From Escherichia coli (lineage in GTDB: Bacteria > Pseudomonadota > Gammaproteobacteria > Enterobacterales > Enterobacteriaceae), in assembly GCF_003334815.1 (NCBI RefSeq), contig NZ_QOWO01000136.1: a stretch of 324 nt of DNA. The stretch is one strand, 5' to 3'. This document shows positions 1 to 324 of the stretch, one piece after another (the first letter of the stretch is position 1; each line of letters starts with the position of its first letter). Below the pieces are notes generated by a model that did not search any database, was not told the origin of the DNA, and saw only the letters and a list, made by a program, of their open reading frames with translations. Position numbers and translations under genes: made by a program.

Positions 1-37
1 CCGTAGGCCGGATAAGGCGTTCACGCCGCATCCGGCA
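1..37 (-). repeat. REP/PU element, Z-type (probably Z2), reverse orientation; copy 1
   Basis: ccgtaggccggataaggcgttcacgccgcatccggca is the reverse complement of the Z-type PU consensus as I remember it (gccggatgcggcgtgaacgccttatccggcctacgg). Imperfect hairpin: arms 7-19 and 24-36, 13 bp with 2 internal mismatches, loop ttca 20-23. GTAG motif at 3-6. Confidence 0.8.
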
Positions 38-50
38 GTCGTGCGCAGAT

Positions 51-86
51 GCCTGATGCGACGCTAACGCGTCTTATCAGGCCTAC
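51..86 (+). repeat. REP/PU element, Y-type, forward orientation; copy 1
   Basis: gcctgatgcgacgctaacgcgtcttatcaggcctac matches the classical E. coli REP (Y) consensus. Imperfect hairpin: arms 51-64 and 69-82, 14 bp with 2 mismatches (one is G·U in RNA), loop 65-68. Ends in CTAC (83-86), the complement of GTAG. Confidence 0.85.
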
Positions 87-101
87 AAATTCCCGCGCCA
101 T

Positions 102-138
<37 letters not shown>

Positions 139-151
139 GTCGTGCGCAGAT

Positions 152-187
152 GCCTGATGCGACGCTAACGCGTCTTATCAGGCCTAC
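152..187 (+). repeat. REP/PU element, Y-type, forward orientation; copy 2
   Basis: Identical to 51-86. Confidence 0.85.
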
Positions 188-202
188 AAATTCTCGCGCC
201 AC

Positions 203-239
203 CCGTAGGCCGGATAAGGCGTTCACGCCGCATCCGGCA
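203..239 (-). repeat. REP/PU element, Z-type, reverse orientation; copy 3
   Basis: Identical to 1-37. Confidence 0.8.
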
Positions 240-252
240 GTCGTGCGCAGAT

Positions 253-288
253 GCCTGATGCGACGCTAACGCGTCTTATCAGGCCTAC
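253..288 (+). repeat. REP/PU element, Y-type, forward orientation; copy 3
   Basis: Identical to 51-86. Confidence 0.85.
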
Positions 289-303
289 AAATTCCCGCGC
301 CAT

Positions 304-324
304 CCGTAGGCCGGATAAGGCGTT
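304..324 (-). repeat. REP/PU element, Z-type, reverse orientation; copy 4, truncated by the window edge
   Basis: ccgtaggccggataaggcgtt matches the first 21 nt of the Z-type PU in copies 1-3; the window ends before the loop and second arm. Confidence 0.7.

What the first reader, a model, noticed from the sequence alone, without database searches (positions are those of the whole stretch)
1..86. GTAG/CTAC tetranucleotides flank each palindrome, the hallmark of REP-associated tyrosine transposase (RAYT) substrates
The Z PU carries GTAG at 3-6 (and 104-107, 205-208, 306-309), and the Y PU ends in CTAC at 83-86 (also 184-187, 285-288). From established knowledge, this tetranucleotide next to the REP hairpin is the recognition and cleavage determinant for RAYT (TnpA-REP) proteins, which are thought to spread REPs. 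The high copy identity here would fit recent activity of that kind. REPs are also reported targets of some insertion sequences such as IS1397.
Basis: partly seen in the sequence, partly recalled or inferred. Interest (0 to 1): 0.4.

Follow-up and report, generated by a model that had tools for sequence, protein, structure and literature searches.

The report
Known E. coli REP/BIME-2 array with GTAG

Summary
GTAG sits at 3, 104, 205 and 306, and CTAC at 83, 184 and 285. Each lies at the foot of an imperfect palindrome, on one side only.

The window is 3.2 copies of a 101-bp BIME-2 unit. Its best match (99.7%) is the E. coli mhpE-mhpT intergenic array. No exact source was found.

In 210 kb of MG1655, 24 of 28 REPs oriented without using their flanks carry GTAG at the 5' foot, so the motif is far beyond chance.

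Both REP types in the window have every feature published as required for RayT (TnpAREP) binding and cleavage. rayT is present in 3575 of 5426 complete E. coli genomes. In MG1655 it is flanked by the same two REP types.

The array varies by whole 101-bp units, from 0 to 7 added units between strains. Large arrays are concentrated in rayT+ genomes at two loci, but this is confounded by phylogroup. Higher-order 202-bp and 303-bp duplications fit ordinary unequal recombination at least as well. Recent RayT activity is therefore not shown.

Verdict: already known, low interest.

The parts
1..101 (.). BIME-2 unit 1 (101 bp). It is identical to unit 3.
   Evidence: TRF finds period 101, 3.2 copies and 97% matches. 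Copy 1-122 is 100% identical to 203-324.
3..36 (+). y-type REP: GTAG (3-6) plus a 30-nt imperfect palindrome (7-36). On the - strand it is the y iREP, with a consensus site-II C|T cleavage position between window bases 6 and 5.
   Evidence: ssDNA hairpin of -12.2 kcal/mol with an AA/GC internal mismatch. Numbered from the G of GTAG it gives T11, A12A13, G26C27 and G32, the published y REP contacts.
37..50 (.). Short head-to-head linker (S type), AGTCGTGCGCAGAT.
   Evidence: It is 14 nt long. No IHF consensus is found anywhere in the window, even allowing 1 mismatch. The definition of BIME-2 is in PMC3333891.
51..86 (-). z2-type REP on the - strand: a 32-nt palindrome (51-82) plus GTAG, read as CTAC at 83-86 on the + strand. 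On the + strand it is the z2 iREP. It carries the consensus cleavage sites TGCC|TGAT (between 53 and 54) and GGCC|TACA (between 83 and 84).
   Evidence: Hairpin fold. The site consensus comes from PMC3333891. Sequence read.
87..103 (.). Tail-to-tail linker between CTAC and the next GTAG, AAATTCCCGCGCCATCC.
   Evidence: Sequence read. Two of the three differences between unit types A and B lie in the corresponding linker of unit 2.
102..202 (.). BIME-2 unit 2 (variant B). It differs from units 1 and 3 at positions 123 (hairpin loop), 194 and 202 (linker).
104..137 (+). y-type REP, copy 2 (GTAG at 104-107).
138..151 (.). Head-to-head linker, copy 2.
152..187 (-). z2-type REP, copy 2 (CTAC at 184-187 on the + strand).
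188..204 (.). Tail-to-tail linker, copy 2. A C-to-T change at 194 creates an extra C|T dinucleotide.
203..303 (.). BIME-2 unit 3, identical to unit 1.
205..238 (+). y-type REP, copy 3 (GTAG at 205-208).
239..252 (.). Head-to-head linker, copy 3.
253..288 (-). z2-type REP, copy 3 (CTAC at 285-288 on the + strand).
289..305 (.). Tail-to-tail linker, copy 3.
306..324 (+). Start of y-type REP copy 4 (GTAG at 306-309), cut by the end of the window.

Best explanation
The window is an internal piece of a BIME-2 array. This is a tandem run of 101-bp units, each made of a y-type REP and an inverted z2-type REP joined by short linkers. It lies in the mhpE-mhpT intergenic region of an E. coli strain.

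GTAG is the conserved 5' tetranucleotide of every REP. Because the two REPs of a unit face opposite ways, it reads GTAG before one hairpin and CTAC after the other.

Shown in vitro by others for the same REP types: when the DNA is single-stranded, RayT (TnpAREP) binds the folded REP through GTAG, the AA/GC mismatch and lower-stem bases. RayT is a domesticated HUH/Y1 transposase encoded once per genome. It then cuts at C|T dinucleotides in the neighbouring inverted REP, including inside CTAC, and in the linkers. It can also join strands.

Shown here: the window's REPs carry all of these determinants on both strands, and the array gains and loses whole 101-bp units between strains.

Inferred: GTAG is there because these REPs descend from, and remain potential substrates of, the RayT system.

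Which process made the recent copy-number changes is unresolved. I lean towards ordinary unequal recombination or replication slippage between near-identical units for the most recent events. RayT may have been responsible for seeding the BIME at a formerly single REP.

In the cell the array is transcribed with mhpE into mhpT, on the window's - strand. It most likely acts as an RNA-level stabiliser and attenuator, as shown for the similar REP325 array.
For: Anatomy:
- TRF finds period 101 and 3.2 copies.
- The hairpins with an internal mismatch fold as ssDNA.
- GTAG and CTAC lie only at the hairpin feet.
- There is no IHF site, no promoter or terminator match, and stop codons in all six frames.

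Locus:
- The best matches over the full 324 nt (99.1-99.7%) fall between mhpT and mhpE in E. coli.

Genome-wide motif:
- 24 of 28 independently oriented REPs in 210 kb of MG1655 have GTAG at the 5' foot.

RayT determinants present:
- T11, A12A13, G26C27 and G32 are in the y REP (against PMC8266576).
- The consensus sites TGCC|TGAT and GGCC|TAC are present.

RayT itself:
- It is annotated in MG1655 and flanked by y and z2 BIMEs.
- It is identical to PDB 4ER8 and scores 179 bits on NCBIfam NF047646 against a cutoff of 80.
- It is present in 3575 of 5426 genomes.

Array dynamics:
- Intergenic gaps of 175, 274, 476, 577, 579, 678 and 880 bp differ by whole units. The 175-bp state is a single y REP.

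Literature:
- GTAG requirement, C|T cleavage and BIME-2 definition.
- rayT flanked by Y and Z2.
- REP325 acts as both a terminator and a stabiliser.
- RNA of the transcribed strand folds at -199.8 kcal/mol, z = -11.6.
Against: - No 100% match to the window exists in 5426 complete genomes, so the source strain and its rayT status are unknown.
- RayT action on this particular array was not and cannot be tested here.
- No in vivo REP mobilisation by E. coli RayT has been demonstrated in the papers read. A mobilome study found no circular BIME intermediates.
- 34% of E. coli genomes lack rayT yet keep intact GTAG-tagged arrays. Present-day maintenance therefore does not require the enzyme.
- The RNA-level role at mhpE-mhpT is by analogy to REP325 only.
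Confidence: 0.88

Rival explanations
1. The near-identical tandem copies are the product of recent RayT-catalysed BIME amplification (cleavage at C|T, priming and strand transfer).
For: - RayT cleaves and joins BIMEs in vitro and can assemble multiple REPs. Published models propose tandem amplification.
- Raw association at the mhp locus: arrays with 2 or more added units occur in 30 of 69 rayT+ genomes and 2 of 36 rayT- genomes.
- Raw association at the REP325 locus: spans above about 1100 bp occur in 18 of 38 rayT+ genomes and 1 of 21 rayT- genomes.
- The XL10-Gold array is a run of identical units.
Against: - The association is confounded by phylogeny. The expanded arrays sit in K-12-like lineages that are rayT+. 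B1-like rayT- lineages have small arrays.
- rayT+ O157:H7 and the rayT+ strains whose flanks are most diverged from K-12 also have the minimal state.
- Multi-unit arrays persist in rayT- strains. PI12 has 4 added units, identical to MG1655, and RM9872-C1 has 3.
- The most recent duplications have 202-bp (window) and 303-bp (DLI.5a) registers with chimeric units. This is the signature of unequal homologous exchange rather than one-BIME addition.
- No circular intermediates were detected in a mobilome study.
Confidence: 0.25
2. Copy number and copy identity are governed by RayT-independent unequal crossing-over, gene conversion or replication slippage between 101-bp repeats. Under this reading GTAG is simply carried along in each duplicated unit.
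For: - Whole-unit length differences.
- Higher-order periodicity: units 1 and 3 of the window are identical while unit 2 differs at 3 sites.
- The DLI.5a array equals the MG1655 array plus a 3-unit block whose first unit is a chimera of the edge unit and an internal unit.
- The first unit in strain 63-2 is likewise chimeric.
- Variation is seen only where 2 or more units already exist, whatever the rayT status.
- From established knowledge, 100-bp tandem repeats rearrange readily in E. coli by RecA-dependent and RecA-independent routes.
Against: - It does not explain how a z2+y unit was first added to a lone y REP. The 175-bp state has no repeat to recombine.
- It does not explain genome-wide conservation of GTAG at non-tandem REPs.
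- Large arrays are rare in rayT- genomes in the raw counts.
Confidence: 0.6
3. GTAG is conserved for a host function unrelated to RayT, for example RNA hairpin function in 3' UTRs or binding of gyrase, Pol I or another protein. RayT recognition would then be secondary.
For: - rayT- strains keep GTAG and CTAC intact in every unit even where other positions have diverged (RM9872-C1).
- REPs have documented roles as mRNA stabilisers and attenuators.
- REPs and BIMEs are documented binding sites for DNA gyrase, DNA polymerase I and IHF.
Against: - Loss of rayT is recent in E. coli (PMC3333891), so retention says little.
- The only direct experiments on the tetranucleotide tie it to RayT binding and cleavage and to strong SELEX selection.
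- GT(A/G)G heads accompany RAYT-associated REPs across many genera.
Confidence: 0.12
4. The units are copies of the naRNA4 small-RNA gene (Rfam RF02564), acting with HU in nucleoid organisation.
For: Each unit scores 85-87 bits on the + strand and 62-63 bits on the - strand against RF02564, whose gathering score is 59.5.
Against: - RF02564 was built from REP325, itself a y/z2 BIME-2 array. The hit therefore restates REP homology.
- The flanking genes are transcribed on the window's - strand, which is the weaker-scoring orientation.
- A 2026 preprint reports that REP325/naRNA4 does not measurably compact the nucleoid.
Confidence: 0.05

Closest known systems
E. coli BIME-2 arrays such as REP325 (yjdM-yjdN) and the BIMEs flanking rayT (the REPtron)
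   Same: - The same two REP types (GCCGGAT y and long GCCTGAT z2) in alternating orientation.
- GTAG at every 5' foot.
- A 14-nt head-to-head linker, and a tail-to-tail linker of similar length (17 nt at the rayT-flanking BIMEs).
- A period of about 100-101 bp.
- Placement between two co-directional genes (true of REP325).
- Copy number that varies between strains.
   Different: - The linker sequences differ. AGTCGTGCGCAGAT here compares with AGTTGTACGCAGGT and AGTTATGCGCAGAT next to rayT.
- Relative to transcription the unit is inverted compared with REP325. Here the transcript reads z2 REP then y iREP. REP325 reads y REP then z2 iREP.
BIME-1 (y + L linker + z1)
   Same: It contains a y REP with GTAG and an inverted partner REP.
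   Different: BIME-1 is single-copy. It has a conserved 35-36-nt L linker with an IHF-like site and the short z1 palindrome. The window has none of these.
REPINs and RAYTs of Pseudomonas (group 3)
   Same: Inverted REP doublets that can fold into one long hairpin. The 101-nt unit folds as a y:z2 long hairpin at -27 to -30 kcal/mol. They are associated with a single-copy RAYT.
   Different: Group 3 REPs are short perfect palindromes and are recognised differently. E. coli group 2 REPs need the stem mismatch. Tandem arrays are characteristic of enterobacterial BIME-2.
Subterminal hairpins and 4-nt guide sequences of IS200/IS605 elements (IS608, ISDra2)
   Same: An imperfect hairpin with a 5' tetranucleotide bound by an HUH/Y1 enzyme on single-stranded DNA. 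Bases of the tetranucleotide are proposed to pair with the cleavage site.
   Different: - No transposase gene lies between the hairpins here.
- RayT is monomeric and needs only C|T.
- RayT acts on both strands and is not itself mobile.

Membership tests
Enterobacterial (group 2) REP, RayT/TnpAREP substrate | Conserved GTAG immediately 5' of the hairpin foot | tested here: met
   GTAG is at 3, 104, 205 and 306 (+ strand) and at 86, 187 and 288 (- strand), each abutting a palindrome. The same holds for 24 of 28 REPs elsewhere in MG1655.
Enterobacterial (group 2) REP, RayT/TnpAREP substrate | A 30-40-nt imperfect palindrome that folds as a single-strand hairpin | tested here: met
   ssDNA folds of -12.2 kcal/mol (the 50-nt segment 1-50 containing the y hairpin) and -13.5 to -16.7 kcal/mol (the 64-nt segment 40-103 containing the z2 hairpin), with z-scores of -2.0 to -3.4.
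Enterobacterial (group 2) REP, RayT/TnpAREP substrate | Unpaired bases in the stem (A12A13 opposite G26C27) plus lower-stem T11 and G32 | tested here: met
   The y REP numbering reproduces all of these positions. The z2 REP has the same AA/GC mismatch, at 12-13 and 28-29.
Enterobacterial (group 2) REP, RayT/TnpAREP substrate | C|T cleavage sites in the adjacent inverted REP | tested here: met
   TGCC|TGAT is at 50-57 and GGCC|TACA at 80-87 on the + strand. GGCC|TACG is on the - strand over bases 9-1 (against the consensus). This shows sequence presence only.
Enterobacterial (group 2) REP, RayT/TnpAREP substrate | Actual binding and cleavage by RayT | not testable with these tools
   Published for y, z1 and z2 REPs of MG1655. 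Not done for this array.
BIME-2 | Composed of y and z2 REPs in inverse orientation | tested here: met
   The GCCGGAT 30-nt palindrome is y and the GCCTGAT 32-nt palindrome is z2. The assignment rests on the residue numbering and the site-I rule and on the contrast with the short z1 in BIME-1 loci.
BIME-2 | Short S linker and no IHF-binding L linker | tested here: met
   The head-to-head linker is 14 nt. WATCAANNNNTTR gives 0 hits with 1 mismatch allowed.
BIME-2 | Multiple tandem copies, with a number that varies between strains | tested here: met
   3.2 copies in the window. Strains carry 0 to 7 added units.
BIME-2 | Strong DNA gyrase binding or cleavage | not testable with these tools
   Literature only (Espeli and Boccard 1997, as cited).
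REPtron context (a RAYT in the genome, flanked by cognate REPs) | A rayT homologue is present in the species | tested here: met
   Present in 3575 of 5426 complete genomes by megablast, and the same count by blastn. The MG1655 protein is identical to 4ER8 and hits NF047646. Pfam Y1_Tnp gives only E = 0.082.
REPtron context (a RAYT in the genome, flanked by cognate REPs) | rayT is flanked by the same REP types | tested here: met
   One y plus z2 BIME lies upstream and two and a half lie downstream of rayT in MG1655.
REPtron context (a RAYT in the genome, flanked by cognate REPs) | rayT is present in the window's own source genome | not testable with these tools
   No 100% match to the window in the collection. 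The 62-mer spanning y, S and z2 is absent from the species-representative genomes.
naRNA4 (Rfam RF02564) | Score above the family gathering threshold | tested here: met
   85-87 bits on the + strand and 62-63 bits on the - strand, against a threshold of 59.5.
naRNA4 (Rfam RF02564) | Expressed as a discrete RNA in the model's orientation | tested here: inconclusive
   The flanking genes are transcribed on the window's - strand, the weaker orientation. No promoter-like site was found on either strand. No expression data were available.

The most novel reading that the evidence does not exclude
Tandem expansion of BIME-2 arrays in E. coli may depend on rayT in vivo.

At two unlinked loci (mhpE-mhpT and yjdM-yjdN), multi-unit and highly polymorphic arrays are almost confined to rayT+ genomes in raw counts. 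The figures are 30/69 against 2/36 at mhpE-mhpT, and 18/38 against 1/21 at yjdM-yjdN.

If this survived phylogenetic correction over all BIME-2 loci, it would be population-genomic evidence that the domesticated transposase drives array amplification, or that arrays decay once it is lost.
Probability: 0.15. Interest if true: 0.45.

Novelty: already known. Interest (0 to 1): 0.08.

Why it matters
It matters little as a discovery. REP/BIME architecture, the GTAG head, its role in RayT binding and cleavage, the single-copy rayT flanked by BIMEs, its absence from about a third of E. coli strains, and strain-to-strain variation in tandem BIME number were all published between 1991 and 2021.

The useful outcome is a clean annotation. 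This window should be filed as the mhpE-mhpT BIME-2 array, not as a gene, a CRISPR-like array or a new element. RefSeq 'hypothetical protein' calls across such arrays are probably spurious.

The one open question it touches is whether RayT acts on these arrays in living cells. That question is testable with the strain collection used here, but it is not answered by this window.

Tried and rejected
- **Exact source.** No 100% hit in 5426 complete E. coli genomes. The 62-nt y-S-z2 pattern gave 0 hits in the species-representative genomes. The 34-nt y REP alone is widespread in E. albertii, Pseudocitrobacter and Citrobacter, so it does not identify a source.
- **Pfam on RayT.** It gave only a sub-threshold Y1_Tnp hit, E = 0.082. 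NCBIfam and PDB were used instead.
- **Other features in the window.** An IHF site, a promoter, an intrinsic terminator or an ORF were all checked and all were negative.
- **First REP detector.** A strict regular expression under-sampled degenerate REPs. It was replaced by blastn-short with the palindrome cores only.
- **Array boundary as a RayT integration scar.** The right-hand boundary, GTGC|TGGG, falls at a C|T. I rejected this as non-diagnostic. An insert placed there would have to start with T, but it starts with G. Because 42 nt are shared between the ends, the true junction could lie at any of three C|T sites on the other strand.
- **rayT status against array size as a test of mechanism.** The raw association is strong but it follows phylogroup, so I do not accept it as evidence of causation.

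Full report
**1. The observation**

The window reads as stated. A scripted search finds GTAG at 3, 104, 205 and 306. It finds CTAC at 83, 184 and 285, with no other copy on either strand.

The window is 3.2 copies of a 101-bp tandem unit at 97% identity. Copies 1 and 3 are identical. Copy 2 differs at three sites.

Each unit holds two imperfect palindromes. One is a 30-nt palindrome at 7-36 (GCCGGAT...ATCCGGC). The other is a 32-nt palindrome at 51-82 (GCCTGAT...ATCAGGC). As single-stranded DNA each folds into a hairpin with an internal mismatch. The whole unit can alternatively fold into one long hairpin that pairs the two palindromes with each other.

GTAG abuts the 5' foot of the first palindrome and CTAC abuts the 3' foot of the second. 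The tetranucleotide is therefore on one side of each palindrome only. The other sides read AGTC and AGAT.

Inside the window the excess is modest: 7 hits against 2.07 +/- 1.36 expected, with 1 of 200 shuffles reaching 7. It is also not made of independent events, because the copies are tandem duplicates.

**2. Is the motif more than chance?**

I took 210 kb of E. coli K-12 MG1655. REPs were located by blastn-short using only the palindrome cores, and oriented by their internal asymmetry.

Of the 28 REPs found, 24 have exactly GTAG at the 5' foot. The four exceptions read GGCG, GTAA, GTAT and CCAG, and two of them are array-edge copies. The 3' flanks take 14 different tetranucleotides. The motif is a real, position-specific feature of the family.

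**3. What and where it is**

Megablast against 5426 complete E. coli genomes hits every genome at many places. The best full-length matches (99.1-99.7%) lie between mhpT and mhpE. MG1655 has the same array there. No hit is 100%, so the source strain is not in the collection.

Both genes are on the window's - strand, so the array is transcribed from mhpE into mhpT. That RNA strand folds very stably, at -199.8 kcal/mol with z = -11.6.

The window contains no IHF consensus, no promoter-like or intrinsic-terminator-like site, and no open frame.

By the published definition, BIME-2 has y and z2 REPs, a short S linker and multiple tandem copies (PMC3333891). This is a BIME-2 array.

**4. Nomenclature correction**

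Numbering from the G of GTAG reproduces exactly these bases in the GCCGGAT palindrome and not in the GCCTGAT one.

PMC3333891 also states that the TGCC|TGAT cleavage site exists in z but not in y inverted REPs.

MG1655 BIME-1 loci pair the GCCGGAT palindrome with a conserved 35-36-nt linker and a short GCCTGATAAGCGYAGCGCATCAGGC palindrome, which is z1.

So 3-36 is a y REP on the + strand. 51-86 is a z2 REP on the - strand, which makes it a z2 inverted REP on the + strand.

**5. Link to RayT**

What others have shown:
- GTAG lies 5' of the hairpin foot. Mutating it to ACGA abolishes TnpAREP binding and cleavage, and repairing the stem mismatch does the same.
- Cleavage is at C|T in the inverted REP and in the linkers. 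The site consensuses are TGCC|TGAT and GGCC|TAC, the latter inside CTAC.
- Each of the four bases is individually required. In the 4ER8 co-crystal, A3 and G4 face the active site and are proposed to pair with the C|T.

What the window shows:
- It carries all of these determinants on both strands.
- Consensus sites fall at 53|54 and 83|84 on the + strand and at 6|5 on the - strand.

The enzyme gene:
- In MG1655, rayT (b0228) is annotated at 247637-248134.
- Its product is identical to 4ER8 chain A and passes NCBIfam NF047646. Pfam gives only a weak Y1_Tnp hit.
- It is flanked upstream by one y plus z2 BIME and downstream by two and a half, with the same 14-nt and 17-nt linker lengths as the window. 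This agrees with PMC2817692.
- rayT DNA is found in 3575 of 5426 genomes by megablast and in the same number by the more sensitive blastn. That matches the published 74 of 110.

**6. Array dynamics**

The mhpE-mhpT gap is 175 bp in O157:H7 ECP19-798, TUM14697 and 503829, where it holds a single y REP. It is 274, 476, 577 (MG1655), 579, 678 and 880 bp in other strains. These lengths correspond to 1 to 7 added units of z2 plus y.

To relate size to rayT I searched with chimeric queries made of both unique flanks plus a rayT fragment. The span of the joined flank hit gives the array size. The number of places per record gives rayT status.

| Locus | rayT status | Genomes | Distribution |
|---|---|---|---|
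| mhpE-mhpT | rayT+ | 69 | added units 0:33, 1:6, 2:7, 3:4, 4:19 |
| mhpE-mhpT | rayT- | 36 | added units 0:22, 1:12, 3:1, 4:1 |
| yjdM-yjdN, REP325 | rayT+ | 38 | spread over 1 to 7 units |
| yjdM-yjdN, REP325 | rayT- | 21 | 20 with the one-unit state, 1 with three units |

The raw association is strong. For 2 or more added units at the mhp locus, Fisher's exact test gives p = 3.6e-5. It is not phylogenetically corrected.

The expanded arrays belong to K-12-like lineages, which are rayT+. B1-like rayT- lineages have small arrays. rayT+ O157:H7, and the rayT+ strains whose flanks are most diverged from K-12, also have the minimal state.

Multi-unit arrays persist in rayT- strains. PI12 is identical to MG1655, and RM9872-C1 has three diverged units.

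The fine structure points to unequal homologous exchange:
- The window's A-B-A order implies a last duplication in a 202-bp register.
- The DLI.5a array is the MG1655 array plus a 303-bp block whose first unit is a chimera.
- The first unit in strain 63-2 is also chimeric.

I therefore treat 'recent RayT activity' as possible but unproven. For the latest events, recombination or slippage is the more economical explanation. The first addition of a z2+y unit to a lone y REP cannot be explained by tandem-repeat recombination, and it is where RayT is the more natural candidate. This last point is inference.

**7. Other functions**

Rfam's naRNA4 model hits every unit. That family was built from REP325, another y/z2 BIME-2 array. 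The stronger hits here are antisense to the mhp transcript.

A 2026 preprint finds that REP325 acts as a partly Rho-dependent attenuator and as an mRNA stabiliser rather than a nucleoid organiser. By analogy, the mhpE-mhpT array probably protects the upstream transcript and tunes read-through into mhpT. This is untested here.

REP targeting by IS1397 and IS621 is documented. No IS is present in the window.

**8. Verdict**

Two corrections apply: the labels are swapped, and the tag is one-sided. One inference is unproven: recent RayT activity. Everything here is established knowledge about E. coli REP/BIME-2 elements and RayT. Novelty is 'already known' and interest is low.

Noticed in passing
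window 6-83, 107-184, 208-285 (both strands): Every unit exceeds the gathering score of Rfam RF02564 (naRNA4/CssrE): 85-87 bits on the + strand and 62-63 bits on the - strand. The model derives from REP325, another y/z2 BIME-2 array. Here the stronger orientation is antisense to the mhpE-to-mhpT transcript.
   Followed up: partly
window 7-36 versus 51-82: The finding's Y and Z labels are reversed relative to the nomenclature of PMC3333891 and PMC8266576. The GCCGGAT palindrome is y and the long GCCTGAT palindrome is z2.
   Followed up: yes
window 123, 194, 202; L001 2609-3488: Higher-order periodicity. Units 1 and 3 are identical and unit 2 differs at three sites, all in a hairpin loop or linker, which implies a 202-bp duplication register. 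Strain DLI.5a carries a 303-bp block duplication with a chimeric unit.
   Followed up: yes
L010 601-775, L011 601-775, L008 601-775: In O157:H7 ECP19-798, TUM14697 and 503829 the mhpE-mhpT gap is 175 bp and holds a single y REP. This is probably the ancestral state, to which z2+y units were later added in K-12-like and B1-like lineages.
   Followed up: partly
mhpE-mhpT and yjdM-yjdN loci across E. coli genomes: Large arrays are concentrated in rayT+ genomes at two unlinked BIME-2 loci: 30/69 against 2/36, and 18/38 against 1/21. The pattern follows phylogroup, and rayT+ O157:H7 and the most K-12-diverged rayT+ strains also have minimal arrays.
   Followed up: partly
L002 2811-3488 versus L004 2883-3459: Two K-12-derived assemblies differ at this array. 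MG1655 has four added units including a variant B unit. XL10-Gold has five, with the B unit replaced by the A type. This is either very recent change or gene conversion, or an assembly artefact.
   Followed up: no
RefSeq records H10-H14 and H20; H196 and H207: Some RefSeq annotations place a 'hypothetical protein' CDS over BIME-2 arrays. All six frames of the window contain stops, so these calls are probably spurious.
   Followed up: partly
array edges in L004 (window-orientation text): The right edge of the array falls exactly at a C|T (GTGC|TGGG). The left flank has a GCCTAC 9 nt before the first GTAG. The first y REP is degenerate (GGACAAGACGTTTATCGC, with T11 lost) in most multi-unit strains. 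None of these could be tied to a mechanism.
   Followed up: partly
L078 842-1377; L084 2070-2349; L017-L059: The exact 34-nt y REP including GTAG is abundant in Escherichia albertii and Pseudocitrobacter faecalis and is present in Citrobacter werkmanii. Pseudocitrobacter has tandem arrays with spacings of about 100 bp and 82 bp.
   Followed up: no
L014 1968-2066; L015 12457-12554: Two BIME-1 elements in MG1655. Each has a y REP, a conserved 35-36-nt linker (AAAAATGTGCAAATTCAATAAATTGCAAT...) and a short z1 REP. The linker matches the strict IHF consensus only with one mismatch.
   Followed up: partly
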